Shown piece by piece: positions 12,013 through 42,731 of a stretch of 64,000 nt of DNA (its first letter is position 1; every line of letters starts with the position of its first letter). This DNA is from Candidatus Omnitrophota bacterium (GTDB lineage: Bacteria > Omnitrophota > Gorgyraeia > S143-82): contig WGBD01000001.1 in NCBI GenBank assembly GCA_015494465.1, positions 244,477 to 308,476 of the forward strand, read 5' to 3'. A model generated the notes under the pieces. That model searched no databases and had not been told where the DNA came from. It saw only the letters and a program-made list of their open reading frames with translations. Both the position numbers and the translations under genes were made by a program.

Positions 12013-12047
12013 ACATTATACCACATAACCAATTACTCACCTAATCG
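12013..12047 (-). promoter_or_regulatory. extended -10 promoter (TGGTATAAT) upstream of fliF
   Basis: The minus strand reads TGGTATAAT (complement of 12015-12023) in the 68-bp fliM(1)-fliF gap, about 50 nt upstream of the fliF ATG. The SD is CAGGGGGGTAAAGG. Confidence 0.45.
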
Positions 12048-22169: not shown

Positions 22170-22654
22170 TGGATGACGAACTCCGAGAAGTAGACCCCCA
22201 CTACCTTGCCTTGACTCAGGATCTCGTTAACCTTGTCCATTATCTCCTGCTTCAGGCGGTCCTTTCCCGCCAGGGGCATTACATCGTCTAAGCTCTTGCT
22301 GGAAAAGATGGTGATTAGGATGTCCTTTATCTCCGGCAGTTTCTTGTTTATCTCCTCCAACACCTCTTCCTTATCGACCTCGAAGACGGGATTGACCTTC
22401 AGGTAGCGCTCCGCGTTTACCTCAGCGAGGTTCACTATGAAGGGATCCTCGAACTGGTAAAATATACCAGGCTCTTTCTTCTCCTGCTTGACCTCTTCTT
22501 TAGGTGCCTCTTCGGCTTTCTTGTTCATGGTCAAAAAGAAAAACCCTCCCCCAGCTAACGCCAACACCACGGCTGCCACGACGACCAAAAGTATAGGGTT
22601 CAGCCCTTTCTTGGCCTGATTAGCCTCTTTTACCTCCGGATCCGGCATGATCAA
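22166..22654 (-). CDS. fliL: flagellar basal-body-associated protein FliL
   Basis: 162 aa with one TM segment. FEDPFIVNLAEVNAERYLKVNPVFEV is FliL-like. It is positioned between motB and fliM. Confidence 0.75.
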   Translation of the reverse strand: MIMPDPEVKEANQAKKGLNPILLVVVAAVVLALAGGGFFFLTMNKKAEEAPKEEVKQEKKEPGIFYQFEDPFIVNLAEVNAERYLKVNPVFEVDKEEVLEEINKKLPEIKDILITIFSSKSLDDVMPLAGKDRLKQEIMDKVNEILSQGKVVGVYFSEFVIQ

Positions 22655-23325
22655 CTCCTCCCGAGTACCTCTTTTGCCCTCAACACGATGTCTATCTTAA
22701 CCGCCTTATTCAGAGAATCGTCCCTGCGCCCCTCCGGATAAAGGTGCACGAAAGGTACGCCCTGCCTGTGAAGATATTGCATCACGGAAAAGGCCCGCCA
22801 ATAAGCGACTTCCCAGTCCTTATCCCCGCCAAAACCACCTGCATAACCCACAATTGTTATACCATAGGGAGTATCGAAATACAACGCCAACATCCTCTGC
22901 AAGAAGAGCTTTGCCTTCGCTGACAGATCGCCTTTATCGGATGTGAAGAACATGGACTCGTCAAAACATATGTGTATCCTCCCGAGGGCGTCGTAGCTCA
23001 CATTCACCGGCTGGCCAGGCTTTTGGGGCTCAGAGGTAAACTCTATCCCCTGAAGGTCTTCCAGCTTCAACCTCTTCAATATCCTCATTATCCTGGTCTG
23101 GGCAACATCCGGCTTGGTAATGATGGCCCCTCCACCCTCCAAGATCCCTGCACCTCCGGTCCCAAAGGCCCCAAAGGCGCTCTTTATGGAGGTGATCACC
23201 GTGTTCATCTTCTTGTTTGGCTCCTGGGTCCCCATGCTCACCAAAAGGATAAAGAAGGTCATCAATAGGGTCATCAAGAGCCCGTAAAGGAGCATGTATC
23301 CAGGGGCGGACGGTTCGTCTCCCAT
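22651..23325 (-). CDS. MotB-like protein with a degenerate OmpA-like C-terminal domain
   Basis: 224 aa. PGYMLLYGLLMTLLMTFFILLVSM resembles the MotB plug/TM region. The C-terminus (IVGYAGGFGGDKD..AYWRAFSVMQYLHRQGV..KIDIVL) is only loosely OmpA-like. Confidence 0.55.
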   Translation of the reverse strand: MGDEPSAPGYMLLYGLLMTLLMTFFILLVSMGTQEPNKKMNTVITSIKSAFGAFGTGGAGILEGGGAIITKPDVAQTRIMRILKRLKLEDLQGIEFTSEPQKPGQPVNVSYDALGRIHICFDESMFFTSDKGDLSAKAKLFLQRMLALYFDTPYGITIVGYAGGFGGDKDWEVAYWRAFSVMQYLHRQGVPFVHLYPEGRRDDSLNKAVKIDIVLRAKEVLGRS

Positions 23326-23337
23326 CCCTTCACCTCC

Positions 23338-24126
23338 TCATATACTGGAATAATCTGGGGTCCTGCCGATGATCACGATCTCTATCCTTCGGTTTCTGGC
23401 CCTGTGCTCCGGGGTGTCGTTAGGCACGACCGGCTTCAGGTCCCCCAGACCTGCCACCCCTATCCTCTCAACCGGCATGCCGTTGTCGATGAGGAAGTGA
23501 GCCACCGCCAAGGCTCGGTGAAGTGAGAGGTCAAAGTTGTCCTTATAGGGTCCTCCCCACTTCACGGGGATGTTATCCGTGTGTCCCTCTACCACTATGG
23601 GGTTGTCGACATAAAGCAGTAAGGGCAAGATCTTCTTCAGCACCCGCTTGGCCTCTTCGCTGAGCTGGGTAGAACCCTTCTCAAAGAGGATCTCGTTGTG
23701 TATCCTGATGGAGTATCCTCTCTGTACTTTAGTGATCTCGATGTACTTGTAGATCCCCTGACTCTTTACATAGCCCTTCAGGTTCATCAACTTCTTCACT
23801 ACCGCAGACTGCTCCCGGAAGGTCAAGGCCCTACGGTTCCTCACCAATACGGTGACGATCCGCTCGAGCTTCTCAAGCCCAGTGCCCCTACCTGAGAACC
23901 CCGCTCCTCCGAAGCGCAAGGAAACAGAACCGATAAATCCACCTACCTTTAACTCGTCAAATGAGGTGAAAGAGACGAGCATCACGAAAAAGGTGAGCAA
24001 AAGGGACATCGCGTCGCCAAAGGTGAGCATCCAAAAAGGACAGGTCGGCCCCTCGTCTTCCTCTACCTCTTCTTCTTTCTTCTTGCGCTTATCAGCCATC
24101 TCCCCCCACCAGATGGCAGTGCCCAC
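23338..24126 (-). CDS. motB: flagellar motor protein MotB
   Basis: 262 aa. CPFWMLTFGDAMSLLLTFFVMLVS is the MotB TM/plug region. The C-terminal OmpA domain is GHTDNIPV...LSLHRALAVAHFLIDNGMPVERIGVAGLGD...NRRIEIVI. Confidence 0.85.
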   Translation of the reverse strand: MGTAIWWGEMADKRKKKEEEVEEDEGPTCPFWMLTFGDAMSLLLTFFVMLVSFTSFDELKVGGFIGSVSLRFGGAGFSGRGTGLEKLERIVTVLVRNRRALTFREQSAVVKKLMNLKGYVKSQGIYKYIEITKVQRGYSIRIHNEILFEKGSTQLSEEAKRVLKKILPLLLYVDNPIVVEGHTDNIPVKWGGPYKDNFDLSLHRALAVAHFLIDNGMPVERIGVAGLGDLKPVVPNDTPEHRARNRRIEIVIIGRTPDYSSI

Positions 24127-25957: not shown

Positions 25958-27580
25958 TCACCCTTCCAACTCTACCGGGATCAGACCTCGTAGGGCGTTC
26001 CCTACGAAAACCCTCTTCCCCACTAAATCCGAAATGTGGATTCTCTCCTCTCGGGCCCTTCCCTCCGCTAAAAGGACCTGGCGTAATACGCCCTCCAGTA
26101 TCCTCCCATCGCTGGGTGGAGTTAGCATCTCTCCAGCCGATTCCACGAAGACATTGGTGATACATCCCTGCAAGAGGAAACCGTCTTCGTCGACGAGGAT
26201 CACCTCGTCGTATCCCCCTTTCCGGGCCTCCTTCAGAACGGAATCGAAGAAATGACGAAATCTCGTGGTCTTGAATCGGAGGTGGGGCCCAGCATATCTT
26301 AGATCGAACCTCTTCACGAGCGCCCTCCACCGAACAGGCCTATCCCCGTTGATCTGTTCCAAGCCCCAACGAAAGTGACCGCAAACCGACATGGTCAAGC
26401 GCAAGCGCCACAGGCCGGGAAGGCCCTCGATCGTCCTCTCCACCGCCCTCTTTAGTTTCAAATAGGGACAGCGGAACCCAAAAAAGGCCGAGGCATCGAG
26501 CAAGCGCTTAGCGTGAAACCTCCAATACGGGATCCTCCCTCCCTCGACCCTCATCGTTTCTATCAGTTCGAAGTCCATTGCAGAATTGAGGAAAAACCCT
26601 GCCTTGAGCAGGTCCTCTGCGTACTCCCGGTGTGCCCGTGAATCCCATACGATCCCACTCCCGATCCCCAATCTCCCCCGAGAAAGTCCGTCGTACAACT
26701 CCACCGTGCGGATGAGGACCGCCAACTCCCCTTGATCGCCCCGTATCCAGCCTGCCACTCCGGTGTAAGGCCCCCTCTCCCAATTCTCTAGCTGAGAAAT
26801 TATCTTAACGGTGCTGGACTTCGGGGCCCCAGTCACTGAGGCGGGGGGCAAGGTAGCGGAAAAGATCTCCTGCCAACGCATCCCGTTCCGCAAGCGCCCC
26901 CACACCCTTGAGACCAATTGAGAGATCGTCGGTAGGCGTTTGGTCCGGAACAACTCCGCACCTATCGACCCGTGCTCGCATATCTGCCCCAACTCGTTGC
27001 GGATCATGTCCACGATCATGACATTCTCTGCCTTCGTCTTCTCGTCCAAGATCCCCGGATCGCCTGGGGCCCAGGTCCCTTTCATAGGCTCCATCTCAAC
27101 ATAGCTTCTATCCCTCAGAAGGAACCTCTCGGGGGAAAGGGACAGCAAGGCCCAATCGTCCTCTATTACTGCCCAGGCAAGGGGTGTGGGTTGGGTTGAG
27201 AGGAGACGGAGGAACAGCCCGGTTGCAGACCCTCGGAACCTGAATCTCAAAGGGAAGGTGAGGTTGACCTGGTAGGTATACCCCTCTTTTATGAATTCCT
27301 TCACTTCGAAGATGCGCGCTCGAAAGTCCTCAAAGCCCAAGCCAAGCGATAGATCCCAGACATCGAAGGGCCCTTCTTTCACTTCCACAGGTTCCAACAG
27401 CTTCCACGCACCTGCGTAAGGCAGACCCGTTTCCGAACCCCCGTAAGAGATAAACACCAAAAAGTCCTCGTCGCGATGGCGAGAGAGAATCGAGAACAGA
27501 TCGGAGAGCCTATCCTGAGAAGAAACGAACTGGCCCTCTCCCAAGCGCCACCACTTCCCTTGCCAGAAACCAAGGCTCAT
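25958..27580 (-). CDS. aminodeoxychorismate synthase component I fused to aminodeoxychorismate lyase (PabB-PabC)
   Basis: 540 aa. It has a chorismate-binding core (SPERFL, TGAPK, GPYTGVAGWI) followed by a class-IV aminotransferase/ADC-lyase-like C-terminus (YDEVILVDEDGFLLQGCITNVFV). Confidence 0.6.
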   Translation of the reverse strand: MSLGFWQGKWWRLGEGQFVSSQDRLSDLFSILSRHRDEDFLVFISYGGSETGLPYAGAWKLLEPVEVKEGPFDVWDLSLGLGFEDFRARIFEVKEFIKEGYTYQVNLTFPLRFRFRGSATGLFLRLLSTQPTPLAWAVIEDDWALLSLSPERFLLRDRSYVEMEPMKGTWAPGDPGILDEKTKAENVMIVDMIRNELGQICEHGSIGAELFRTKRLPTISQLVSRVWGRLRNGMRWQEIFSATLPPASVTGAPKSSTVKIISQLENWERGPYTGVAGWIRGDQGELAVLIRTVELYDGLSRGRLGIGSGIVWDSRAHREYAEDLLKAGFFLNSAMDFELIETMRVEGGRIPYWRFHAKRLLDASAFFGFRCPYLKLKRAVERTIEGLPGLWRLRLTMSVCGHFRWGLEQINGDRPVRWRALVKRFDLRYAGPHLRFKTTRFRHFFDSVLKEARKGGYDEVILVDEDGFLLQGCITNVFVESAGEMLTPPSDGRILEGVLRQVLLAEGRAREERIHISDLVGKRVFVGNALRGLIPVELEG

Positions 27581-28386
27581 TTCTCCTTAACCGCAGGGAG
27601 GACCTTCTCAATCAGTTCTTCATAGGCGGATCGGACCACAGTTTGTCTATCCCACACGCTCTCACCTCGTTTCAAGGCATCTATTAGATCTGGAGAAAAG
27701 GGGATACTCGTCAAGAGATCCACCCCTAACTCTCTGGCCACATCGTCTGCGGTTCTATCCCCAAACAACCTTATCCTCTCAGAACAATTGGGACAGATTA
27801 ACTCGCCCATGTTCTCCACCAAACCCAATACCTTTATCCCCATTTTTCTAGCGAAAGAGACACTTCTACGGGTATCTGCCAGGGCCACCTCGTTGGCAGT
27901 GGTCACTATAATCGCCCCGCTGATCGCATCCGCCAAAAACTGCATAACCGTAAGGGGCTCATCACCCGTTCCTGGAGGAGAATCTATCACCAGAAAGTCC
28001 CTTTCACCCCACCTAACCCCTGAAAGAAACTGCCGAATGAGACCTATCTTAAGAGGCCCTCGCCAGATGACCGCCTCGTCCGGGGAAAGGTTCTCCGCCA
28101 AGGAGACCACCGCTATCCCATCCGGCCCCTGCCGAGGCAGCAACTTGCCTTCTCCGTCGGCAGAAAGACCTCGCGGTTCCAGGCCAAGCAAGACCAACAC
28201 ATCTGGACCGTGCACATCCGTATCCATAAGGCCCACCTTGTATCCCCTCTTGGCCAGGCCTCGGGCAAGGTTAACCGCTACGGTAGACTTCCCCACCCCT
28301 CCTTTTCCGCTTAACACCAACAAGACATGCCTTATACCTGAAAGGGCCTCTCGGACCTCCTGTCTAATCTTCCGTATCGTGTCCAA
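27577..28386 (-). CDS. Mrp/NBP35 (ApbC) family iron-sulfur cluster carrier ATPase
   Basis: 269 aa. It has a deviant Walker A (LSGKGGVGKST) and an ICPNCSE cysteine motif. Confidence 0.85.
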   Translation of the reverse strand: MDTIRKIRQEVREALSGIRHVLLVLSGKGGVGKSTVAVNLARGLAKRGYKVGLMDTDVHGPDVLVLLGLEPRGLSADGEGKLLPRQGPDGIAVVSLAENLSPDEAVIWRGPLKIGLIRQFLSGVRWGERDFLVIDSPPGTGDEPLTVMQFLADAISGAIIVTTANEVALADTRRSVSFARKMGIKVLGLVENMGELICPNCSERIRLFGDRTADDVARELGVDLLTSIPFSPDLIDALKRGESVWDRQTVVRSAYEELIEKVLPAVKEK

Positions 28387-28419: not shown

Positions 28420-31400
28420 CTATTCCAAGATTATACCACCCGGTTGGTTCCAGTTGGCCCTGATCTGGCTTACCAACTGTTCCATCCTCTCCAGCACATC
28501 TTTACTGCCCAACTTCTCCAAAATACTGGTAACCTCGTCTCGATAGCTCCCTAAGCGGAGGTCCAGGTCCAACATACCCCCGAGGAGGTCCAGCTCTTGC
28601 TCGGAGAAGGCCTCCTCCGTCACCTTCGACGCCAGATCCCGGAGTTCCTCTCTCAGCTGGGTCAACTCCTCTTCGGAGATTGGCTCATCTACCTTGTGGA
28701 GTAGAAGGAGGTATCCCTTCTCAGGATGTCTTAATAGGCTCACCACCCGATATCCCTGGAGAACTGCGGAGTGCACTGCTTCCAAAAGCTCGTCTTTCTC
28801 CAACCATTGGGGATTTTCTATTTCATACACATTCCCCCTCCACATAAGTGACCTTGGCCCTTCTTGCCAAGTATACACTTCCCTCGAGAAGACCTCTGTA
28901 TATCGCTTCATCACTGCGGAATCCTTAACCGAATCAAACTCTTTAGTCACAACATCCAGCACATAGGGATCGAATGGACGGGGAAGGATCAGCCTCTCGC
29001 CGAAAAGGAAGGCAAAGACCTCTCCTTTCGAATCGGAGATTACGCGCAACTCTTCATCAGATCTCGGCTCGCCGGTGGATCCCTTCGCAAAGTCCTCCAT
29101 AATCGTCTTCCAATTCGCTGACACCTCACCTACGACTCGTTCTATGTCCTCCTCCTTATCTGCGAGATCAAACCAGATCCCCAATTCCTTGCTCTTCATA
29201 GAGATCGCTGGGTCGAAGATGTGCTCTCGAGCCAACTCCCCAATTGGACCAACCACATCCCGGAAGCGTATCCACTTCACGAAAAACCTCTTGATGCGCT
29301 CACTCCACTCGACATCGTCCTCAGAAACACCGCCCTTAGGGAGGAGGGACACGAGTCCGTGTATAGCAGAGAGTCGGTAGAGGAAGTAATCCCCGACATC
29401 CCTTAAGATTATCGAGTCCTTCTCTTTGTCTATGGCCCGCGGGGTTTGGGCCCCGCTCTTCCCCTCATATCGGGCTATGCGCATAATTAGAGGAAAGAGT
29501 TTGTCTCTCCACATCTTATCCGCCCTTTGTCTATCTCCCTCTCGCACCGCCTTAGAAAACTCTCCGCAAAGACGATAAAAGCCGGTTCTGCGGAACTTCT
29601 TTACAAACCCGCCCTTTTTAACTGCCTCCTCGTCGGAATACTCGTCCAAAAGCTCTCTTACCTCATCGAAAAGCTCATCTACATCCCCGGAGGTCTTCCT
29701 TAGCTTCCGCTTCACTATCCCTCCGAGGGGCGCATAAAGGATACCTAATAAGCGGGAGAGAGACCTGTCTACCTCATCGTTCAACTCCCTAGGCAGAAAG
29801 ACCCACACCGCATCCGAGATCGCAGTGGCCCTTACCGCCTTGTCTACCTGCAAAGCCAGCCGTCTATCCCTTATCCTTGACCGGATCATCCAAGTGGGCA
29901 GGCGTCGGTCCAACGGGACCAACAGGTCCTTGGCCAGGGTCAGGATACGATACTCTTCCCGAGTTGGGGAGTTGTAGAAGAGATAGCGCAGGAACATCCT
30001 CTTGCTAGGATGGGCTCGGGCTATGTCGTATTCGCCCCTCGCTATTCCCTTACTCCTGAGGGCCTTCATCATCAGGGCCTCGTCTTGTCTCAACAAGGCA
30101 ACCATGGCCAACAAGACCGGGTATTCTGGTCCCAACGGCCCCCCTAGGGCCCGGAATCTTACTACCGGGAAGACCTCCCGACGATTGTGAAACCTCTGGT
30201 TCGTCCTTTCCACGAACCTGTCTTCGAATCCCTCGGGGAGCCAATCGTTGGAATATACCGCAAACCTCACCCGAGGAGCACCAAACCTGTCCAATCCCAC
30301 TGGCCACTTATTCGTCCAGATAAGACCCTTCCTTTCCTCTAAGGCCTTGCCAAACTTGTCGTAGCCCTCCTTTATGGCAAAGGCGAAGATCTCCTGGAGC
30401 GGATAGTTGAGCCCCCTTTCCGCCATGTAGGCCTGAGCGGAGACCACCGGAAAGACCCAGAAGGGATTAGACATGTACCGAATAAATCGCTGAGTTAACT
30501 CCTTCATCCCGAACTGCCGGAACAGATAAACGCGCATCTCTTTATCAAAGAGCTTGCTCACATCTCCCTTGCGCCTGTATCTCCAGGCATTAACACACAC
30601 CCGATCTACGGTATCCAACACCTTTTTCACATCCCCTGGCAGGTAGTCTCGGTTGAGTCTGTAGACCATCTGGCGCAACAGGTTCATACCTAGCCTATAA
30701 TCCACCGACCCTGCATAACCTCCTAACTCGCGCAATTCCTCCTCGGGAAGCAGGGCCATTAAACGAATGAAGGCCTCGAACAACCTTCCTCTCAACCCCT
30801 CCACCTCTTCGGAATCGATCGCTTGACTCGCCAGGAGTTCCGCAAGCCGACTCACATCGGAGAGAAACTCTCGTTTCAACTGAATCGGATCAACGGTTTT
30901 CTCCGTCTTTACCACTTCTCCACCCAGAGCAGGTTCTTCCTCTTGAAGCATAACGACCTCATCTTGAGGTTGTTTGCCCTCCCGCTCTGCCAAGGGATTC
31001 ATCATCCGGGAGAGTTTCATCAATCCTCCCGTCCCCAAGGCACTGAGTCCTCCGTAAATCGCTAAACGCCTCAAAAAGGCCCTCCTGCTCATACCATCCT
31101 CTCCCAAACTCCACAACGACTTTGGATCCCACCTGGGATAGACTAAGGACAACTTCCCTTTTATCAAAGATAGCTTGAGCTCCCCCAAGACATCAGAGAT
31201 CCGATCCGGATCAAAGAGCCCCCCCAAGACCGACTCAAAAAAGCCAAGCACATCTAGATTTCGTGCGTCCAATATGTTCGTATCCTCTAATTTCTTAAGA
31301 GACCTTTGGAAGAGAGGACCAAAGGTCATACCTCCCTGAAAGACTTCTTTCTCCAACAACCTGTTCAACAGGTACTGCTCCAAGCTGTGGACCAAGATAG

Positions 31401-33771
31401 GCCTGTTTTCCCCCAGTATGGTAAGGGGAAAGAGCCTCCCCAACAGTCTGCTCCACTCCTGGAGGCCATCGCTCCCCAACACCCTCTCCACCACCGCCAA
31501 GCCCCCGACATCTGCCAGAAACTCACTAATCAAGGCGGAGAAGACATCCCGGGTGAGATCGCCTGGCTCTAGACTGGGGACCTTCTCTTCCAAGAGCCCG
31601 TACACCAGGTTGTGGGTTATCTCGTGGGCCAAGATAGAGCCCACCAAAAGGGAAACATTCGATCGGGCAAAGAGGACCATATTCAAAGGGTGGAAGGCAT
31701 AACTCGCATCGCCGAAGAACCCCCCTCCCCGGATCACCGTCCTTGCGAACAATATCTTTTCCAGCATCCACCTTTTAAGATCGTCCTTCTCCTCTTGTCC
31801 AGAGAGGGAGACCACCGTAGGGGTAAGTAAGGTCAAGACGGTCTTGATCTTCTGCTCCAGCAGGCGAGGATCCGCACAGGAAGAGAGCACCTCCTTCACA
31901 AAGTCCTTATCCTGGGCCCAGTGTAAGAACTCATCCCAAACTTCTCTGAGATAGCTGTTATCTCTAAAAGCGAGGTAAAGACCAGCCCTCATCCTCACCT
32001 CCCGGGGAAGGGTCTCGTCTGAGAAAAGACTCTCCAGTAACTTATTCGGTATGGACCTCTGTACGAGGAAGTCCAACAAGGCGGTAGCGTAAAACGGATC
32101 GTCCTGCCAGTAATAAATCCGATTAATGGCAGAGACCAGATTCCCAAGCTCGTTCCACAGGAGATACCGAACTTGCTTCCTCCCTGATTTACCCTCGGGA
32201 ACAGAGGTCCAAAGGTAGATCAAGGTCTTTAGGGAGATCTCCTGCAGATAGGGGAGAATACCTTCCAATCTATCCAGAAAGGCATCTGACTTTGCCATCG
32301 TCTCTAAGAGTATCGGATTCTGGGAGGAAAGACTTTCCAAAAAACTAGCTAGTCTATTCGGAGGACAACTAGAACCCAAGATCGAGGCTATATCGTTGAG
32401 GTAATCCTGGAGCCAGGGATGGTCTATAAACAGGTCTGCGTCCCCTAGGAACTCCACAAACGAGTTCCATTGCTCTTCGTCGAGATCAACTCTCCCGCTC
32501 TCTACGAGTCTTCCCAATTGATAAAAGCCCTTTGCCCTGTCGGACAAAGAATCGAACTCCAAGGGAGAACCGGTCAAACCTGCGATGAACAGGGCTATGT
32601 CCTCTCCCATACCCAAACGAGCGATCTTCCCGACATGTTCCTTCCCCAACCTGATCTCCAAAACCTCGTCTATCGATCGCTTGGTCAGGTACATCCTTAG
32701 GGCAAGGAGCGATAGATAGATATCCTCGTGCCGGTTATTCCTAAACACATCTATCGCGGAGTCCAACAGCTCCCGGGAGTGAACGGGGAATTGAGAGTAG
32801 AACAAGCGGAAAAAATCTACCGTGGGATTGTACCTTCTATTCCGCACTACAGTGGGGTTGCGGGAGATAAAAAACCAGTTCAAGATCAACGGTTCTAAGA
32901 GGTCCGGGCGCTGGGCTAGTTCCATAAGCCCCTGCGCAAACCAGACCTCATCCCGCCTCCATATCCGCTCAAGCATCTCCCGCACGTCCTCTATCCCCAT
33001 CTTGTCCATGCCCATCCCCAGATCCGAGAGCAGGACATACATCTTTTCCCCAGGAGTAAGGTCTGGATCTGACACTACGCGACCGTAAATCCGGGAAATC
33101 CTGCTGGCAAAGTCCTCGACCTCGACCGCGTGGTAGGCATCCGCCCCTATGTTTAACGGGGGAAGCTCTATGCCCCCGACTATTCCCTCCTCGGAGAACA
33201 GGTCCCGATGGTACAGGGAAAGGATCCAATCTGTCCCCTCAGGGTAGGCCCTGCCAGGGTATCCCCTTCTCAACAACCCGATCTTTCCGGCCCAGTCCCT
33301 ACCTCGATAGAACCAATAGACTGCCCTCCGCAAGGGGTAAAACTCTTGCGATTCGTTGACTATACTTGCCAACTCGGGAACGAATTCTTGGATTCCTTCC
33401 GCGCCCTCTGCCTTCACCTCAAAGCGCACCTCAGGGAATACCGCCTCCGGGACCAACCACAGCCTGAATACAGAATCCTCATCCGATCCGAAACCCGAGA
33501 CCAGTTCCTTGGCAATCTCTTTTAGGCGGTAATCGTAGTAAAGGAGGAAAGCGGTCATCTCAGGGAAGGCTATCTGCCCTGAGGAGAGCTCTTCCCTCTT
33601 CGCAAACGGCGAGAGATTAACCCAGGCCTCTCCGCTAAGAACTCCCGACCAGAAGGCAACCGAATCGTAGGGATAGAGCTCAACGACCTCAGGGCGGGCC
33701 TGGGGTAAAGGAAAAGTAAAAAACAAACAAATCGCTAAAAAGGTGTTAAGCCATCTCGTCTTTCTTCCCAT
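28420..33771 (-). CDS. giant secreted protein of unknown function with an HExxH...ExxxD metallopeptidase-like motif
   Basis: Uninterrupted 1783-codon frame. Signal peptide MGRKTRWLNTFLAICLFFTFPLPQA. ILAHEITHNLVYG...SEFLAD lies around aa 700. An internal Tat-like hydrophobic segment (SRRAFLRRLAIYGGLSALGTGG) lies around aa 880. Confidence 0.6.
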   Translation of the reverse strand: MGRKTRWLNTFLAICLFFTFPLPQARPEVVELYPYDSVAFWSGVLSGEAWVNLSPFAKREELSSGQIAFPEMTAFLLYYDYRLKEIAKELVSGFGSDEDSVFRLWLVPEAVFPEVRFEVKAEGAEGIQEFVPELASIVNESQEFYPLRRAVYWFYRGRDWAGKIGLLRRGYPGRAYPEGTDWILSLYHRDLFSEEGIVGGIELPPLNIGADAYHAVEVEDFASRISRIYGRVVSDPDLTPGEKMYVLLSDLGMGMDKMGIEDVREMLERIWRRDEVWFAQGLMELAQRPDLLEPLILNWFFISRNPTVVRNRRYNPTVDFFRLFYSQFPVHSRELLDSAIDVFRNNRHEDIYLSLLALRMYLTKRSIDEVLEIRLGKEHVGKIARLGMGEDIALFIAGLTGSPLEFDSLSDRAKGFYQLGRLVESGRVDLDEEQWNSFVEFLGDADLFIDHPWLQDYLNDIASILGSSCPPNRLASFLESLSSQNPILLETMAKSDAFLDRLEGILPYLQEISLKTLIYLWTSVPEGKSGRKQVRYLLWNELGNLVSAINRIYYWQDDPFYATALLDFLVQRSIPNKLLESLFSDETLPREVRMRAGLYLAFRDNSYLREVWDEFLHWAQDKDFVKEVLSSCADPRLLEQKIKTVLTLLTPTVVSLSGQEEKDDLKRWMLEKILFARTVIRGGGFFGDASYAFHPLNMVLFARSNVSLLVGSILAHEITHNLVYGLLEEKVPSLEPGDLTRDVFSALISEFLADVGGLAVVERVLGSDGLQEWSRLLGRLFPLTILGENRPILVHSLEQYLLNRLLEKEVFQGGMTFGPLFQRSLKKLEDTNILDARNLDVLGFFESVLGGLFDPDRISDVLGELKLSLIKGKLSLVYPRWDPKSLWSLGEDGMSRRAFLRRLAIYGGLSALGTGGLMKLSRMMNPLAEREGKQPQDEVVMLQEEEPALGGEVVKTEKTVDPIQLKREFLSDVSRLAELLASQAIDSEEVEGLRGRLFEAFIRLMALLPEEELRELGGYAGSVDYRLGMNLLRQMVYRLNRDYLPGDVKKVLDTVDRVCVNAWRYRRKGDVSKLFDKEMRVYLFRQFGMKELTQRFIRYMSNPFWVFPVVSAQAYMAERGLNYPLQEIFAFAIKEGYDKFGKALEERKGLIWTNKWPVGLDRFGAPRVRFAVYSNDWLPEGFEDRFVERTNQRFHNRREVFPVVRFRALGGPLGPEYPVLLAMVALLRQDEALMMKALRSKGIARGEYDIARAHPSKRMFLRYLFYNSPTREEYRILTLAKDLLVPLDRRLPTWMIRSRIRDRRLALQVDKAVRATAISDAVWVFLPRELNDEVDRSLSRLLGILYAPLGGIVKRKLRKTSGDVDELFDEVRELLDEYSDEEAVKKGGFVKKFRRTGFYRLCGEFSKAVREGDRQRADKMWRDKLFPLIMRIARYEGKSGAQTPRAIDKEKDSIILRDVGDYFLYRLSAIHGLVSLLPKGGVSEDDVEWSERIKRFFVKWIRFRDVVGPIGELAREHIFDPAISMKSKELGIWFDLADKEEDIERVVGEVSANWKTIMEDFAKGSTGEPRSDEELRVISDSKGEVFAFLFGERLILPRPFDPYVLDVVTKEFDSVKDSAVMKRYTEVFSREVYTWQEGPRSLMWRGNVYEIENPQWLEKDELLEAVHSAVLQGYRVVSLLRHPEKGYLLLLHKVDEPISEEELTQLREELRDLASKVTEEAFSEQELDLLGGMLDLDLRLGSYRDEVTSILEKLGSKDVLERMEQLVSQIRANWNQPGGIILE

Positions 33772-34301
33772 CGCCTCAACATCCTCTCAAAACTTTCGAA
33801 CGGCATCTTGGGTCGATCCCCTCGCTTGAACCAACCGACTTCTTTCGCGTCGTCGCCAGGTCTTACTTCTTCGGGGGCTAGCACCTCTATCGCGTAGCCG
33901 ATCACGACCACTGAACCATACCTGCGACTGGGTTGGTATTCGACTCCGATCAATCCGATCTCACCTGTGGAAGCAATCCCGGTCTCCTCCTTCAATTCCC
34001 GCAAACAGGCATCCAAAGGGGCCTCCCCTACCTCCATAAATCCGCCTGGCAGGGCCCAACTGCCTTCCTTGGGCTCAACTGCCCGCTTTATGAGTAAAAT
34101 CTTCTCCTCCTTGTAAGCCACGGCGCAGACCACCGGAGGCGGATTAATATAATGCACCCAACTACAGCCGGGACAGATCGGTCGCCACCGGCCTTCTACT
34201 TTAGACAAAGACAATCCCTCGCCACAGCGGGGACAGAACCTAAAGGCGTTCTCTTCCCCGCAGACAATACCACACCTAATATAATCTTCACGGGACAACA
34301 T
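33735..34301 (-). CDS. NUDIX hydrolase with an N-terminal zinc ribbon (NudC-like)
   Basis: 188 aa. CPRCGEG...CPGCSW zinc ribbon. The Nudix box is GGFMEVGEAPLDACLRELKEETGI. Confidence 0.8.
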   Translation of the reverse strand: MLSREDYIRCGIVCGEENAFRFCPRCGEGLSLSKVEGRWRPICPGCSWVHYINPPPVVCAVAYKEEKILLIKRAVEPKEGSWALPGGFMEVGEAPLDACLRELKEETGIASTGEIGLIGVEYQPSRRYGSVVVIGYAIEVLAPEEVRPGDDAKEVGWFKRGDRPKMPFESFERMLRRWEERRDGLTPF

Positions 34302-39854: not shown

Positions 39855-42731
39855 TTACCACCTAAACCTGCTCCGCCAAACCCTTTCTAGATTCTTCACA
39901 TCCTCAACGATGTACTCCTCTCCCTCCAGGCCGTACACGACGAAGCTCTTGCCCTCGCTGGTCCTACCCACCAGCTCACAAGGGAGGCCCTCGAACAGTT
40001 TCTCGAACCTGCCTTTGTGCTTACGATCTATCTCGACCAAAAACCTGCTCTGGCTCTCACTGTAGAACACCACCTCATTGCTTCTACGATCCCCCTCGAA
40101 TGGGACATTGTTCAGAAACAGCTCCGCTCCTATACCCCCTCCTATGCACATCTCCGCCAAGGCCACCCCGATTCCCCCATCGGAGATGTCGTGGCAGGCC
40201 AAGACGATCCCTTCCCTAACCGCCAAGTGCAATCTCTTGTACAACTCCCTGGCCAAGGACACATCCGTACGAGGAACCGAATTGCCAAGCACTCCAAACA
40301 GATTTAGAAATGCGCTTCCTCCCAATTCGTCCCTCGTGAGGCCTACCACATATAGGAGCGTATCTCTCCGCTTTAAGTAAGGAGAGACCACCTTGGAGAT
40401 GTCGTCTATCATTCCCATTCCCGATATAAGGAGAGTCCCTGGAATAGGGATGCTCTCGTTTCCTTTTAGGAACTCGTTGTAAAGGCTGTCCTTGCCCGAT
40501 ATAAACGGTACCCCGAAGCCCAGGGCAAAGTCGTAACAGCCCTTGCTGGCCCGAACGAGTCCTCCCAACCTGTCTGGTTTGTCGGGGTTGCCCCAGCAGA
40601 AGTTATCCAGGATAGAGATCCTATCGGGGTTCCCTCCCACAGCTACTATCTGTCTTATTGCCTCGTCTATACACGCCCCAGCCATCCAATAGGGATCTAT
40701 CCTTCCGTACCAGGGGTTGATCCCACAGCCGAGGGCTATACCTTTCTTGCTGTGTAGGTGTCCGCGTATAACTGCGGAATCGCTTGGGGCGACCTGGCGC
40801 GGTCCGCACAACGGCTTTAATGCCGACCTACCCTGCACCTCGTGGTCGTACTGCCTTATCACCCACTCCTTAGAGGCGATGTTGTAGGAAGAAAGGACTT
40901 GACGGAATGTCTTACTCGGATCCTCTACATCTGGGACGGGCTCTTCTTTCTTCACCCAAGTCCAGACTGCCAACTTCTCTTCCAAAGGTAATCCCCCGTG
41001 GAGGAAGTCCACATCCATCTCCATCACCAGGGCCCCATCGTAGTAAAGGCGCAAGCGACGATCCCCGGTAAACTCCCCTATACAAGTCGCCAGGACATCT
41101 TCTTCGGCAAAGGCGGAGACGACATCCTCCAGGTATTCAGGCTTGACAGCCAAGACCATCCTCTCCTGTGATTCGGAGATCCATATCTCGGTATAGCTCA
41201 GTCCTGAATACTTCAGTGGAACCTTCTCCAGATAGACCACCGCTCCGACATCCCTAGCCATCTCCCCAACTGCAGAGGACAGGCCTCCAGCTCCACAGTC
41301 GGTGATGGCCCTGTACCATCCTTTATCCCTTATCTTCAGCAGGACATCCGCGAACTTCTTCTCTTCGATCGGATTGCCTATCTGTACCGCAGAGGCACAG
41401 CTGTACTGGGACTCCTCGGTCAACTCCGCGGAGGAGAATGTGGCACCGTGGATACCGTCTCGTCCAGTCCTCCCCCCGATCAGGACTATCTTATCCCCTG
41501 GGCGGATCTCCTTCTCTACCGCACCCTTCGGCATAAGCCCCACGGTCCCGCAGTAAACTAGGGGATTGGCACAAAAGTCCGGATCAAAGAAGATCGCACC
41601 GTTGACCGTGGGGATGCCCATCTTGTTCCCATAATCTCTGACCCCTGCCACCACCTCCCGCATCATCCTCCGGGGATGGATAACCCCCTCTGGTACTTCC
41701 TTGGTGTCAGGGGGAGCGAAACAAAACACATCGGTATTAGCGATCGGCTTGGCCCCCAAGCCACATCCGAGCACATCCCTTATCACCCCTCCCAGTCCGG
41801 TGTTGGCGCCACCGAACGGCTCCAGGGCAGAGGGATGATTGTGCGTCTCTACCTTAAAGCACACCGCCCAGTCCGAATCGAACTCTACTACCCCGGCGTT
41901 GTCCTTGAATACCGAAAGGCACCAAGGCTTGTCGAGTTCCTTGGTTGCCTTCATTATGTAGTCCTTAAACAGAGAAGAGATCCTCTCTTCCGTTACGACA
42001 TCTCCTTCCTCCGAGACCTCCCTGTACAATATCGGACTCTTAAAGGTCTTGTGTTGGCAGTGCTCAGACCAGGTCTGGGCTATGGTCTCCAACTCCACAT
42101 CGGTAGGATTTCTCCCCAACTTGCGATAATGTTCCTGAACTGCCTTCATCTCCCTCAGGTTCAAAGAGAGCATCCAATCCTTGCTGATCTGGAGGAGTTC
42201 CTCATCGCCTTTCTCTAGGAGTTCCACCTCCCTGAGGCTAAACTCGTACCCTGGGGACCTCTGGTGAAAAGGATGGAGAAAATCGTTTATGACCCCTATC
42301 TGGATGAGCGGATTGTAGAGCTGGGAAAGAACCGCATTGAGGACACCCTTATCCAAGGGAGGAAACTCGTAGCGCACGCCGGTAAAGACCGCCACGGGAT
42401 CCTGGCGAAAGAACTCCCTAAAGGCCCGGGAGATGGTGATCGCCTCGGGATCCATCACCCCAGGGAGATAACCGATCTCGACCCAGCTCCCTTCGATAAC
42501 GGGAGGGCTATCGTCCGGATAGATGAAGACGCTCTCTACGACGGGATCGAGCAAGACCTTCTCCGCAAAGGCCTCTAGCTCCTCGAGGGAAGGGCCTGCC
42601 TCCAAAAAGACCAGCCTCACTCGCCTTACCGAATCTATCCCTTCGACCCCGAATCCCTTCAAATAGGAAACGATCTCCCGGCTGGCCGGGGAGCCAGGAT
42701 CTCTATGAATCACATGAACACGGATTCGCAT
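39855..42731 (-). CDS. purL: phosphoribosylformylglycinamidine synthase PurL with N-terminal PurS-like domain(s)
   Basis: 958 aa. About 200 N-terminal residues are PurS-like (PGVMDPEAITISRAF). A PurL/AIR-synthase-related core follows (FKVETHNHPSALEPFGGANTGLGGVIRD). Confidence 0.85.
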   Translation of the reverse strand: MRIRVHVIHRDPGSPASREIVSYLKGFGVEGIDSVRRVRLVFLEAGPSLEELEAFAEKVLLDPVVESVFIYPDDSPPVIEGSWVEIGYLPGVMDPEAITISRAFREFFRQDPVAVFTGVRYEFPPLDKGVLNAVLSQLYNPLIQIGVINDFLHPFHQRSPGYEFSLREVELLEKGDEELLQISKDWMLSLNLREMKAVQEHYRKLGRNPTDVELETIAQTWSEHCQHKTFKSPILYREVSEEGDVVTEERISSLFKDYIMKATKELDKPWCLSVFKDNAGVVEFDSDWAVCFKVETHNHPSALEPFGGANTGLGGVIRDVLGCGLGAKPIANTDVFCFAPPDTKEVPEGVIHPRRMMREVVAGVRDYGNKMGIPTVNGAIFFDPDFCANPLVYCGTVGLMPKGAVEKEIRPGDKIVLIGGRTGRDGIHGATFSSAELTEESQYSCASAVQIGNPIEEKKFADVLLKIRDKGWYRAITDCGAGGLSSAVGEMARDVGAVVYLEKVPLKYSGLSYTEIWISESQERMVLAVKPEYLEDVVSAFAEEDVLATCIGEFTGDRRLRLYYDGALVMEMDVDFLHGGLPLEEKLAVWTWVKKEEPVPDVEDPSKTFRQVLSSYNIASKEWVIRQYDHEVQGRSALKPLCGPRQVAPSDSAVIRGHLHSKKGIALGCGINPWYGRIDPYWMAGACIDEAIRQIVAVGGNPDRISILDNFCWGNPDKPDRLGGLVRASKGCYDFALGFGVPFISGKDSLYNEFLKGNESIPIPGTLLISGMGMIDDISKVVSPYLKRRDTLLYVVGLTRDELGGSAFLNLFGVLGNSVPRTDVSLARELYKRLHLAVREGIVLACHDISDGGIGVALAEMCIGGGIGAELFLNNVPFEGDRRSNEVVFYSESQSRFLVEIDRKHKGRFEKLFEGLPCELVGRTSEGKSFVVYGLEGEEYIVEDVKNLERVWRSRFRW

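What the first reader, a model, noticed from the sequence alone, without database searches (positions are those of the whole stretch)
28420..33771. 1783-aa secreted giant protein with a gluzincin-like motif and an internal Tat-like segment
A 5.3-kb frame with no stop codon must be coding. It opens with a Sec signal peptide. ILAHEITHNLVYG followed 33 residues later by SEFLAD gives a gluzincin-type HExxH...ExxxD arrangement (M2/M3/M32-like spacing). At about residue 880, SRRAFLRRLAIYGGLSALGTGG looks exactly like the N-terminus of a Tat-exported protein. It could act as an internal membrane anchor, or it could mark an ancestral gene fusion. I recognise no family over the remaining roughly 1500 residues.
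Basis: seen in the sequence. Interest (0 to 1): 0.7.

Follow-up and report, generated by a model that had tools for sequence, protein, structure and literature searches.

The report
Giant envelope protein with internal Tat-like signal
This is a real 1,783-residue gene from a small, undescribed, fast-evolving bacterial protein family that keeps a zinc-protease-type active-site motif and, oddly, a textbook twin-arginine (Tat) export signal in the middle of a protein that already starts with an ordinary Sec export signal.

Summary
Window 28420-33771 (minus strand) is one 1,783-aa ORF under purifying selection (dN/dS 0.21), uninterrupted in nine independent assemblies. No Pfam, NCBIfam, PHROG, PADLOC or PDB family covers it. 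An exhaustive HMMER search of 1.84 billion representatives plus a metagenome scan found seven orthologues, all after the same Nudix gene where upstream DNA is held (one with a paralogue in between), two N-half-only paralogues, and one distant protein sharing only the C-terminal core.

Both motifs are real. Across seven sequences at 14-25% identity, the only invariant columns of the HExxH region are H, E, H and the E and A of ExxA[D/E]. The closest solved structure is a dipeptidyl-peptidase III (E 0.008, borderline).

The internal segment has R-R-x-F invariant and dN/dS 0.09. It is Gly-rich, weakly hydrophobic and usually Lys-capped. Scored alone, it passes the curated Tat-signal model in 6 of 7 orthologues.

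No orthologue is split there, and internal initiation is not conserved. What stays unexplained is topology: a Sec signal followed, with no family-wide conserved hydrophobic segment in between (four members have some as hydrophobic), by a Tat-type signal fits no known dual Sec-Tat protein. Function and export route are inferred, not shown. I rate it a new variant of known kinds, of moderate to high interest.

The parts
28420..33771 (-). Whole gene, 1783 aa plus stop
   Evidence: dN/dS 0.21 against the orthologue; single ORF in 9 assemblies
33697..33771 (-). aa 1-25: Sec-type signal peptide or signal anchor (n-region MGRKTRW, h-region LNTFLAICLFFTFPL, c-region PQA)
   Evidence: The sequence shows it directly. 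An equivalent n/h/c N-terminus is present in all 7 orthologues and both paralogues. KD maximum 1.29-2.14; dN/dS 0.10. No SignalP was available, and cleavage was not tested.
33067..33687 (-). aa 29-235: conserved N-domain (VWVNLAP, FRVWL, FYPLRRAVYWFYRG, GGIxLP)
   Evidence: Alignment A8 with 8 sequences, including the paralogues. The profile finds no PDB relative.
31792..33066 (-). aa 236-660: variable all-helical scaffold (alpha-solenoid-like)
   Evidence: The AF2 model has pLDDT 70-85 over roughly aa 230-610, all helices. Foldseek returns only generic HEAT/ARM/TPR-like hits with TM below 0.2. This region is absent from P0005.
31174..31791 (-). aa 661-866: zincin-like region carrying the metal-site motifs
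   Evidence: Alignment A7; PDB profile search
31612..31626 (-). HEITH (aa 716-720): HExxH
   Evidence: H, E and H are invariant in 7 of 7 sequences at 14-25% identity
31510..31527 (-). SEFLAD (aa 749-754): ExxA[D/E], putative third metal ligand Glu750
   Evidence: E and A are invariant, with D or E at +4. It aligns with EEAKAD of DPP III 5zum.
31009..31092 (-). aa 894-921: internal twin-arginine signal-like element (M-SRRAFLRR, then LAIYGGLSALGTGGLM, then K)
   Evidence: RRxF invariant. TIGR01409 scores 18.1 bits alone against a cutoff of 16.7, and 6 of 7 orthologues pass. dN/dS 0.088. 0 of 20,000 shuffles reproduce it. Hydrophobicity.
30736..31008 (-). aa 922-1012: poorly conserved, charged, variable-length linker
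   Evidence: 46% identity to the 69% orthologue against about 85% in the flanking regions. It is strongly basic in P0004/5/6 and acidic here.
29722..30735 (-). aa 1013-1350: conserved C-core domain (NPFWVFP, AFAIKEGYDK, WPxGLDRFG, GWLP, YLFYN)
   Evidence: Alignment A9 with 7 sequences including P0008. No PDB or Pfam relative. No invariant Cys or His.
29113..29721 (-). aa 1351-1553: fast-evolving region containing the single invariant His of the C-half (H1471)
28423..29112 (-). aa 1554-1783: C-terminal module ending in the conserved GGIILE tail (28423-28440)
   Evidence: Alignment A10 with 9 sequences. Shared weakly with paralogue X1253: 12.6 bits against a maximum of 7.0 in 1000 shuffles.
33735..34301 (-). 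Upstream Nudix hydrolase gene (Zn-ribbon type); its stop overlaps the giant's start by 37 nt
   Evidence: Pfam. The same adjacency and overlap occur in L001, L082/L083, L084, L086 and L087. In L085 a paralogue lies between them.
27577..28386 (-). Downstream Mrp/NUBPL-type P-loop ATPase gene (conserved neighbour)
   Evidence: Pfam. The same neighbour is present in L001, L082 and L087.

Best explanation
The ORF encodes a member of a small, lineage-restricted, fast-evolving family of modular cell-envelope proteins of about 1,800-1,900 aa.

Shown here:
- The gene is real and under purifying selection.
- Its architecture is: Sec-type signal, conserved N-domain, helical scaffold, a region with a conserved gluzincin-type metal site (HExxH, then 16-30 residues, then ExxA[D/E]), a conserved twin-arginine signal-like element, a variable charged linker, a conserved C-core domain, a variable region, and a C-terminal module with a GGIxL tail.
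- The modules occur separately in paralogues and variants.

Inferred:
(a) The N-half is exported or anchored by Sec and carries a zinc metallopeptidase-like catalytic site.
(b) The internal element derives from a bona fide Tat signal that came in with the 'RR + C-core' cassette. It is still functional, because its Tat-consensus residues are invariant while the surrounding protein has diverged to about 25% identity.
(c) Most likely it still serves to get the C-terminal half across the membrane or tether it there. Either the Tat system recognises it after Sec has handled the N-half, as a hand-over or polyprotein-like route, or, less likely, it acts as a weak anchor.

My confidence that it is a genuine modular envelope protein with a functional zincin-type site and a selectively maintained Tat-type element is about 0.6. 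My confidence that the element actually engages the Tat translocase is about 0.4.
For: Gene reality: with single ORFs in 9 assemblies.

Family size and synteny: there are only 6 hits in 1.84e9 representatives plus 1 metagenome locus. Nudix lies upstream of all orthologues with upstream DNA held, directly so except in L085, where paralogue X1134 intervenes.

Rate: neighbours are 48-80% identical where the giant is about 28%.

Zincin site: the only invariant columns in A7 are H, E, H, E and A. The PDB profile hit is DPP III 5zum, E 0.0079, spanning both motifs. Thermolysin and aureolysin also span both, at E about 1-2.

Tat-type element:
- R896, R897 and F899 are invariant among about 76 invariant columns of 1783.
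- TIGR01409 scores are 18.1, 21.6, 20.8, 22.9, 24.3, 15.3 and 26.8 bits against a cutoff of 16.7, with secondary hits to Rieske/PetC and formate-dehydrogenase Tat targets.
- dN/dS is 0.088 with dS about 1.7.
- The h-region is 13-19 aa and 42-62% G/A/S/T. Lys follows it directly in 5 of the 6 tabulated (L087g, seen, also has it). The N-flank carries at least as many K/R as the C-flank, more in 5 of 6.
- Its KD maximum is 1.03-1.59, always below the same protein's Sec signal.
- These are the features that reviews list for Tat signals (PMC7317946) and for Tat-dependent TMDs of dual Sec-Tat proteins (PMC5449189).

Modularity: X1134 and X1253 have signal, N-domain, HELGH and a GGx tail but no RR or C-core. 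P0005 lacks the scaffold and HExxH. In P0008 the C-core follows an RR plus lipobox-like signal segment.
Against: - There is no experimental or structural evidence. Both AF2 models are poor (pLDDT 50 and 40; the HExxH region is below 35), so the zincin fold is unverified.
- The DPP III hit is borderline.
- Topological parity argues against Tat engagement. With one N-terminal Sec signal and no hydrophobic segment conserved family-wide before the RR motif (four members do have segments there at least as hydrophobic as the RR stretch, the HExxH/ExxAD helices), the RR flank should end up outside the cytoplasm, where TatC cannot see it.
- No Tat genes lie in the 64-kb window or the related loci, though that is uninformative about the rest of the genome.
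- The C-half has no conserved Cys and only one invariant His, so there is no obvious cofactor reason for Tat export.
- In full-length context TIGR01409 is sub-threshold (11 bits here).
- There are only 7 orthologues in 5 sublineages, so the conservation statistics rest on few sequences.
Confidence: 0.55

Rival explanations
1. Type-I membrane anchor with no Tat involvement. The Sec signal exports the N-half, the RR-adjacent hydrophobic stretch acts as a stop-transfer helix, and the C-half stays in the cytoplasm. The protein would then be a bitopic membrane protein with an outward-facing zincin domain.
For: Only two hydrophobic segments recur at equivalent positions in all members, the order expected for signal followed by stop-transfer. 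K/R residues sit directly after the stretch, and the linkers downstream are very basic in P0004, P0005 and P0006 (net +13, +3 and +10), consistent with a cytoplasmic location. In P0004, P0006 and L087g the stretch is 19 residues or more with KD about 1.55-1.59, which is borderline for a TM helix.
Against: The stretch is only 13-16 uncharged residues in the window protein, P0002, P0005 and P0007, with KD 1.03-1.16 in three of them. That is too short and too weak for a stable helix. This model does not explain why S/T-R-R-x-F-L/I-K/R/Q is kept to the letter, nor why the N-flank is at least as positively charged as the C-flank (more so in 5 of 6), which is the opposite of positive-inside for this orientation. 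In P0008 the C-core lies after a signal-like segment, which suggests it is an extracytoplasmic domain.
Confidence: 0.2
2. The whole protein is exported by Sec. The RR segment would then be a periplasmic interdomain linker. Its Tat-like sequence would be a relic of a past fusion, or would be kept for an unrelated reason such as a processing or interaction site.
For: This is the simplest reading of a single N-terminal Sec signal with no strongly hydrophobic segment anywhere. N-half-only paralogues are evidently Sec-exported soluble proteins. A Met directly precedes the motif in the window protein and P0002, lies 2 residues upstream in L087g and 7 upstream in P0004, like a fossil start codon.
Against: A relic should decay. 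Instead RRxF is invariant at 23-30% overall identity, and the segment's dN/dS is 0.088 with synonymous sites near saturation, while the adjacent linker has only 46% identity. The Gly-rich uncharged stretch and the trailing Lys are also kept. The very basic linkers of P0004 and P0006 would be poor Sec passengers.
Confidence: 0.15
3. Internal translation initiation at Met894 produces a separate 890-aa protein with a genuine N-terminal Tat signal alongside the full-length product, giving two proteins from one ORF.
For: ATG894 is preceded by GGGAGAGGA with suitable spacing in both the window gene and P0002. P0004 has ATG933 with GGAGG upstream. The resulting N-terminus, MSRRAFLRR..., would be a textbook Tat precursor.
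Against: The SD-like match is no better than background: 44% of 396 internal in-frame ATGs in this window score as well. P0005, P0006 and P0007 have no ATG, and no SD-backed GTG or TTG, within 20 codons of the motif. The codons just upstream are well conserved as protein sequence.
Confidence: 0.07
4. Artefact. Either two adjacent genes were fused by a sequencing or assembly error, or the motifs are chance matches in a long ORF.
For: None beyond the prior that very long ORFs in draft or MAG assemblies sometimes hide frameshifts.
Against: The reading frame is uninterrupted in nine independent assemblies from five divergent sublineages. Codon-level purifying selection runs across the junction. 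Shuffle tests and cross-family invariance exclude chance for both motifs.
Confidence: 0.01

Closest known systems
[quoted passage not shown]
   Same: One polypeptide carries both a Sec-type targeting element and a non-N-terminal consensus twin-arginine motif. That motif sits directly before a weakly hydrophobic segment followed by positive charges.
   Different: The known examples are polytopic membrane proteins. Their upstream Sec-inserted TMDs leave the RR flank in the cytoplasm, and their C-terminal domain binds a cofactor. Here there is only one N-terminal signal. About 870-960 hydrophilic residues (310 in P0005) lie before the RR motif, with no family-wide conserved hydrophobic segment between. 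No cofactor motif is present, and there is no sequence homology to any of those proteins.
Gluzincin metallopeptidases, MEROPS clan MA(E); nearest detectable are DPP III (M49; PDB 5zum) and thermolysin-like M4. The clan and family assignments come from general knowledge.
   Same: HExxH followed 16-33 residues later by a Glu in ExxA[D/E]. P0006 even reads EEMKAD, like the EExKAD of DPP III. The profile aligns across both motifs.
   Different: No family-level homology: E is 0.008 over 66 residues only, and there is no Pfam or NCBIfam hit. The site is embedded in a 1.8-kaa multidomain exported protein. The fold is unverified and activity is untested.
Canonical and uncleaved Tat signal peptides, for example Rieske/PetC signal anchors and the formate dehydrogenase Tat target (TIGR01409, NF045928, TIGR02811)
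   Same: S/T-R-R-x-F-L/I-K/R/Q, a Gly-rich h-region of low hydrophobicity, a basic residue after it, and no obvious AxA cleavage site, as in uncleaved anchors.
   Different: It lies 335-990 residues from the N-terminus, downstream of a Sec-type signal. Tat dependence is untested.
Alpha-solenoid (HEAT/ARM/TPR-like) scaffolds
   Same: The only confidently modelled part (about aa 230-610) is a stack of helical hairpins.
   Different: The resemblance is generic (TM-scores 0.1-0.2) with no repeat-family HMM hit, and the region is poorly conserved and dispensable in P0005.

Membership tests
Gluzincin (MA(E)) metallopeptidases | HExxH motif (two His ligands plus the catalytic Glu) | tested here: met
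   HEITH at aa 716-720. H, E and H are invariant in 7 of 7 sequences, including the two paralogues.
Gluzincin (MA(E)) metallopeptidases | Third ligand Glu about 18-70 residues downstream, typically in ExxxD / ExxA[DE] | tested here: met
   SEFLAD at aa 749-754. E and A are invariant, with D or E at +4 and a spacing of 16-33 residues.
Gluzincin (MA(E)) metallopeptidases | Sequence-level membership of a described peptidase family | tested here: not met
   No Pfam or NCBIfam hit for any member. The best PDB profile hit is DPP III 5zum, E 0.0079 over 66 aa.
Gluzincin (MA(E)) metallopeptidases | Zincin fold (active-site helix, Glu-helix, mixed sheet) | tested here: inconclusive
   The AF2 model of the N-half has pLDDT below 35 over aa 618-893.
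Gluzincin (MA(E)) metallopeptidases | Zinc binding and peptidase activity | not testable with these tools
   Needs biochemistry.
Tat (twin-arginine) signal peptide | S/T-R-R-x-F-L-K consensus | tested here: met
   SRRAFLR here, and [ST]RRxF[LI][KRQ] in 7 of 7 orthologues, with RR and F invariant. The consensus is taken from PMC7317946.
Tat (twin-arginine) signal peptide | Curated model TIGR01409 at or above its 16.7-bit cutoff | tested here: inconclusive
   Scored alone, the segments give 18.1-26.8 bits in 6 of 7 orthologues, and 15.3 in P0007. In full-length context the score is 11 bits here, and 5 of 6 are sub-threshold.
Tat (twin-arginine) signal peptide | Gly-rich h-region less hydrophobic than Sec signals, with a basic Sec-avoidance residue after it | tested here: met
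   13-19 aa and 42-62% G/A/S/T. The KD maximum is 1.03-1.59 against 1.29-2.14 for the same proteins' N-terminal signals. Lys follows directly in 5 of the 6 tabulated, and also in L087g.
Tat (twin-arginine) signal peptide | Located at the N-terminus of the precursor | tested here: not met
   It starts at aa 895 of 1783, and is internal in all orthologues (aa 336-983). Internal initiation is not conserved.
Tat (twin-arginine) signal peptide | Tat machinery present and export Tat-dependent | not testable with these tools
   No TatA- or TatC-like gene lies in the window or related loci.
Dual Sec-Tat-integrated membrane proteins (Tooke et al. 2017) | Conserved RR motif directly before a final segment of low hydrophobicity, with C-terminal positive charges | tested here: met
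   (definition).
Dual Sec-Tat-integrated membrane proteins (Tooke et al. 2017) | Upstream Sec-inserted TMDs that leave the RR flank on the cytoplasmic side | tested here: not met
   Only one N-terminal signal-like segment, and no other hydrophobic segment conserved across the family before the RR motif. The test used crude hydropathy scales, not a trained topology predictor.
Dual Sec-Tat-integrated membrane proteins (Tooke et al. 2017) | Cofactor-binding globular C-terminal domain | tested here: not met
   There is no Pfam domain and no conserved Cys. The only invariant His in the C-half is H1471.
DPP III (M49) | Homology across the M49 catalytic domain with HExxGH/HExxH and EExxA[ED] motifs | tested here: not met
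   Only a 66-residue stretch aligns, at 17 bits. The motif resemblance is real, but family membership is not shown.

The most novel reading that the evidence does not exclude
One polypeptide is handled by two translocases in succession, without the membrane-spanning helices that make this possible in known dual Sec-Tat proteins. The Sec system would thread the unfolded zincin-bearing N-half. The basic, weakly hydrophobic, Lys-capped RR element would stall Sec. The folded C-half would then be taken across by Tat. A variant is a polyprotein cleaved near the RR motif into a Sec substrate and a Tat substrate made in 1:1 ratio. Either would be a new mode of bacterial protein export.
Probability: 0.2. 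Interest if true: 0.85.

Novelty: new variant of a known kind. Interest (0 to 1): 0.58.

Why it matters
If the internal element really is read by the Tat system, this family would extend Sec-Tat cooperation from a few polytopic redox proteins to a large, essentially soluble or peripherally tethered envelope protein. It would also pose a concrete mechanistic puzzle: how can the RR flank stay cytoplasmic behind a Sec-exported 870-residue domain? That is directly testable with the reporter-fusion toolkit already used for Rieske proteins.

Independently of that, the work defines a previously undescribed protein family. It has three domains without any Pfam, NCBIfam or PDB relative, and a validated gluzincin-type motif. 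It is confined to one poorly sampled, flagellated, probably thermophile-like lineage and is always coupled to a Nudix gene. If the element turns out to be a mere anchor or linker, the finding reduces to a new lineage-specific metalloprotease-like envelope protein, which is useful for annotation but not surprising.

Tried and rejected
1. Curated libraries (Pfam, NCBIfam, PHROGs, PADLOC) and PDB sequences on the full protein gave nothing.
2. Word-indexed homology search, run three times (single sequence, 6-sequence profile, C-core profile), returned only the query itself and the 69% orthologue, or nothing. The exhaustive HMMER search was what found the family.
3. The genome-contig scan with the giant protein found nothing, because the tool chose patterns from the signal peptide. 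The Mrp-anchored scan returned 80 loci from other phyla at no more than 52% identity, none with a relative of the giant. The organism's taxonomy is therefore unresolved, and a literature search for the accessions found nothing.
4. AF2 on the two halves with a 2-sequence alignment gave pLDDT 50 and 40. Foldseek on the N-half returned only generic solenoids. No fold search was run on the C-half model because its confidence was too low.
5. A Shine-Dalgarno site before Met894 was rejected as evidence (background rate 44%), and start codons near the motif are not conserved.
6. The idea that the C-terminal module duplicates the N-domain, suggested by the shared GGIxL motif, was rejected by hhalign (probability 0.2%). 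C-core against the HExxH domain also showed no relation.
7. Profiles of the N-domain and C-core against PDB gave nothing credible.
8. The HExxH and ExxAD helices were considered as transmembrane segments that might fix the topological parity. They are among the most hydrophobic stretches in the window protein, but they carry charged ligands, are not consistently hydrophobic across orthologues, and are absent from P0005.
9. A flagellar role was considered because of the surrounding flagellar genes and one non-significant Foldseek hit to a Campylobacter motor scaffold (E 0.04). There is no real evidence for it.
Full report
**1. Observation**

Window 28420-33771 holds a single ATG-initiated ORF of 1,783 codons on the minus strand. 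HEITH is at aa 716-720 and is the only HExxH in the protein. SEFLAD is at aa 749-754. The N-terminus (MGRKTRW / LNTFLAICLFFTFPL / PQA) has Sec-signal architecture.

In 20,000 composition-preserving shuffles, HExxH with a downstream ExxxD appears in 0.39%. A strict Tat motif followed by at least 14 uncharged residues never appears. Pfam, NCBIfam, PHROGs, PADLOC and PDB sequences give no significant hit.

**2. It is a real gene in an ordinary chromosomal setting**

The window is bacterial chromosome with nearly all genes on the minus strand. Two blocks of flagellar genes flank the region: MotA-FlgE-FliK-FliI-FliH-FliG-FliF-FliM on one side and FliA-YcgR-FlhG-FlhF-FlhA-FlhB-FliR on the other. Between them are housekeeping genes (asd, pabB, purF/Q/L/B, mnmG). 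The block of interest reads Nudix - giant - Mrp/NUBPL. There are no tRNA or Rfam hits.

A 69%-identical orthologue (P0002, 1,801 aa) sits in the same slot in another assembly. Nei-Gojobori dN/dS between the two is 0.21 overall and at most 0.23 in every tabulated region where dS could be estimated (two short C-terminal windows reach about 0.55). The window protein equals database entry P0003, and P0001 differs at four residues.

**3. Family**

The word-indexed search saw only these close relatives. An exhaustive phmmer search of 1.84 billion cluster representatives with aa 151-1350 found five more proteins:

| Protein | Length (aa) | E-value |
|---|---|---|
| P0004 | 1,872 | 5e-74 |
| P0005 | 1,264 | 1e-55 |
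| P0006 | 1,898 | 8e-39 |
| P0007 | 1,871 | 5e-33 |
| P0008 | 1,032 | 4e-6 (C-core only) |

A gene-call-independent scan of metagenome contigs added one locus, L087 (1,916 aa, 74% identical to P0004).

In every orthologue locus with DNA on record, the gene follows a Zn-ribbon Nudix gene whose end overlaps its start. The exception is L085, where a paralogue lies between them. Mrp/ParA and LamG follow wherever the contig continues.

Against the P0004/L087 lineage, identities are Asd 77-80%, MotB 78%, PurL 72%, Nudix about 59%, Mrp 54% and LamG 48%. The giant is only about 28% identical, or 36% in its best-conserved core. It is therefore a fast-evolving protein confined to one clade.

I could not name that clade. 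The nearest Mrp homologues among 185,579 species representatives are at most 52% identical and come from several phyla, none of those loci carries a relative of the giant, and no paper mentions the accessions.

**4. Architecture and modularity**

The six-way alignment and the domain alignments define these parts:

- signal peptide
- N-domain (aa 29-235)
- variable helical scaffold (about aa 236-660)
- HExxH region (aa 661-866)
- twin-arginine element (aa 894-921)
- charged, poorly conserved linker (aa 922-1012)
- C-core (aa 1013-1350)
- variable region
- C-terminal module ending in GGIxL

The modules occur separately:

- L085 encodes two paralogues, of 1,134 and 1,253 aa. Each has the signal, the N-domain, HELGH...[NV]E[FV]LAE and a GGM/GGI tail, but no RR element or C-core. 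At least one of them shares the C-terminal module, and the 9-way alignment shows co-linear motifs.
- P0005 lacks the scaffold and the HExxH region but keeps the N-domain, the RR element and the C-half.
- P0008 has an LspA-like membrane domain (Peptidase_A8), then an internal RIRRLLLPLGLIPAILLSGAGC segment, then repeats and the C-core.

No orthologue is split into two genes at the RR element.

**5. The metal site**

In a seven-sequence alignment of the HExxH region (five sublineages and both paralogues; 14-25% identity apart from the one close pair), the only invariant columns are the H, E and H of HExxH and the E and A of ExxA[D/E]. The spacing between the motifs varies from 16 to 33 residues.

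The profile's best PDB match is a dipeptidyl-peptidase III (5zum; E 0.0079). That alignment covers both motifs: HELMH, then 29 residues, then EEAKAD. Thermolysin and aureolysin follow at E about 1-2, also across both motifs. The adamalysins match only the HExxH helix.

Membership of any described peptidase family is not. The fold could not be checked, because AF2 confidence is below 35 over this region.

**6. The twin-arginine element**

R896, R897 and F899 are among about 76 invariant columns of 1,783. All seven orthologues read [ST]-R-R-x-F-[LI]-[KRQ], followed by 13-19 uncharged residues that are 42-62% Gly/Ala/Ser/Thr. Of the six tabulated, five have a Lys directly after the stretch; L087g also does. 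The N-flank carries 4-8 K/R residues and the C-flank 2-4, with the N-flank higher in five of six and equal in the window protein.

The Kyte-Doolittle maximum of the stretch is 1.03-1.59. That is always below 1.6 and always below the same protein's N-terminal signal, which scores 1.29-2.14. Crude Hessa sums are positive, like those of the signal peptides and unlike the true TM helices of P0008.

When the segments are scored alone, TIGR01409 gives 18.1, 21.6, 20.8, 22.9, 24.3, 15.3 and 26.8 bits against a cutoff of 16.7. The next-best models are Rieske/PetC and formate-dehydrogenase Tat targets. In the full-length context the scores are sub-threshold.

dN/dS of aa 894-931 is 0.088 with dS about 1.7, while the linker immediately after it is only 46% identical. 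These are the features that the literature lists for Tat signals (S-R-R-x-F-L-K, F the next most conserved residue, Gly-rich and less hydrophobic h-region, a basic Sec-avoidance residue; PMC7317946). They also match the Tat-dependent segment of dual Sec-Tat proteins (low hydrophobicity plus C-terminal positive charges; PMC5449189).

**7. What it is not**

- It is not an assembly artefact: nine assemblies give one ORF.
- Internal initiation is not a conserved feature. The GGGAGAGGA before ATG894 is no better than 44% of internal ATGs in this window, and three sublineages have no usable start codon near the motif.
- It is not a decaying relic, given the selection data.
- It is not a convincing stop-transfer anchor in at least four of seven orthologues, where the stretch is too short or too weak.

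**8. What remains unexplained**

TatC reads the RR motif on the cytoplasmic face. Here, a Sec-type signal at residue 1, with no other hydrophobic segment conserved across all members before the motif, should place the N-half, and with it the RR flank, outside. Four members do have segments there at least as hydrophobic as the RR stretch, mainly the HExxH/ExxAD helices, but these carry the charged ligands and are missing from P0005. Known dual Sec-Tat proteins avoid this problem with upstream transmembrane helices.

The C-half also has no cofactor motif: it has no conserved Cys and only one invariant His. The P0008 arrangement suggests that the C-core is an extracytoplasmic domain entered through a signal-like segment, but that rests on one distant sequence without DNA on record.

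**9. Mechanism, with probabilities**

Shown: the gene, the selection acting on it, the architecture, motif invariance, modularity and synteny.

Inferred:

| Reading | Probability |
|---|---|
| The N-half is Sec-exported and carries a working gluzincin-type site | about 0.7 for a functional metal site |
| The RR element descends from a true Tat signal that arrived with the RR + C-core cassette | about 0.75 |
| It still engages Tat, through hand-over from Sec or a polyprotein-like route | about 0.4 |
| Weak type-I anchor with a cytoplasmic C-half | about 0.2 |
| Fully Sec-exported, with the element kept for another reason | about 0.15 |
| Internal initiation | about 0.07 |
| Artefact | about 0.01 |

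**10. Comparison and novelty**

The protein works most like a hybrid of a gluzincin-type exported protease and a dual Sec-Tat substrate. It fails defining features of both as families: it has no family-level peptidase homology, and it lacks both the upstream TMDs and the cofactor domain. Three of its domains (N-domain, C-core, C-terminal module) have no detectable relatives in Pfam, NCBIfam or PDB.

I classify it as a new variant of known kinds, with an interest score of about 0.58. The family itself is small and confined to one lineage. The conserved Sec-signal-then-Tat-signal arrangement, however, is unusual and directly testable.

Noticed in passing
L085:2197-5958 and L085:6610-10014: Two paralogues of the giant's N-half, 1,253 and 1,134 aa, lie in tandem upstream of the orthologue P0006. 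Each has a signal peptide, the N-domain, HELGH...ExxAE and a GGI/GGM C-terminal tail, but no RR element or C-core. One of them sits between the Nudix gene and the giant.
   Followed up: partly
P0008 (no DNA on record), aa 84-202 and about aa 262-290: The only C-core-containing protein outside the clade has a signal-peptidase-II-like (LspA, Peptidase_A8) membrane domain. This is followed by an internal RIRRLLLPLGLIPAILLSGAGC segment that looks like an RR-containing lipoprotein signal. It could be an enzyme fused to something resembling its own substrate signal, or it could be a gene-call fusion.
   Followed up: partly
window 33163-33177 (aa 199-203, GGIEL) and 28423-28440 (aa 1778-1783, GGIILE): A GG[IM]x[LIV] motif occurs once in the N-domain and again as the extreme C-terminal tail in all 9 family members. 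Rare variants co-occur within the same protein (P0006 GGIRI/GGIRV; X1134 GGMVA/GGMEV). hhalign finds no wider homology between the two regions.
   Followed up: partly
window 33735-33771: The Nudix gene's last 37 nt overlap the giant gene's start. The overlap, and the Nudix C-terminal peptide MPFExFxR, are conserved in five sublineages. This suggests translational coupling of a Nudix hydrolase with this envelope protein.
   Followed up: partly
window 12033-12974 and 21294-22169: Two full-length FliM paralogues (FliM + FliMN_C) sit in the same flagellar region. There is also a MotB_plug-only gene (22651-23325) next to a complete MotB/OmpA gene (23338-24126).
   Followed up: no
window 12979-15378: A 799-aa GH57 + DUF3536 protein (an alpha-glucan-processing type) is wedged between fliM and the rest of the flagellar cluster.
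   Followed up: no
window 42703-44010; also 18385-19503 and 51226-52479: Three sizeable ORFs (435, 372 and 417 aa) have no Pfam hit. The first lies between purB and the purSL fusion, and similarly placed ORFs without Pfam hits (414 and 424 aa) occupy the same slot in L084 and L001.
   Followed up: no
window 1-64000: The plus strand has strongly and uniformly negative GC skew (about -0.1 to -0.27), with nearly all genes on the minus strand. The encoded proteins are rich in Glu, Arg and Leu, consistent with purine loading of a thermophile-like genome. The related loci range from 38 to 54% GC.
   Followed up: no
window 25958-27580 and 39855-42731: Two fused biosynthetic genes are present: PabB (chorismate-binding) fused to an aminodeoxychorismate-lyase-like class IV aminotransferase, and a PurS-PurL fusion of 958 aa.
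   Followed up: no
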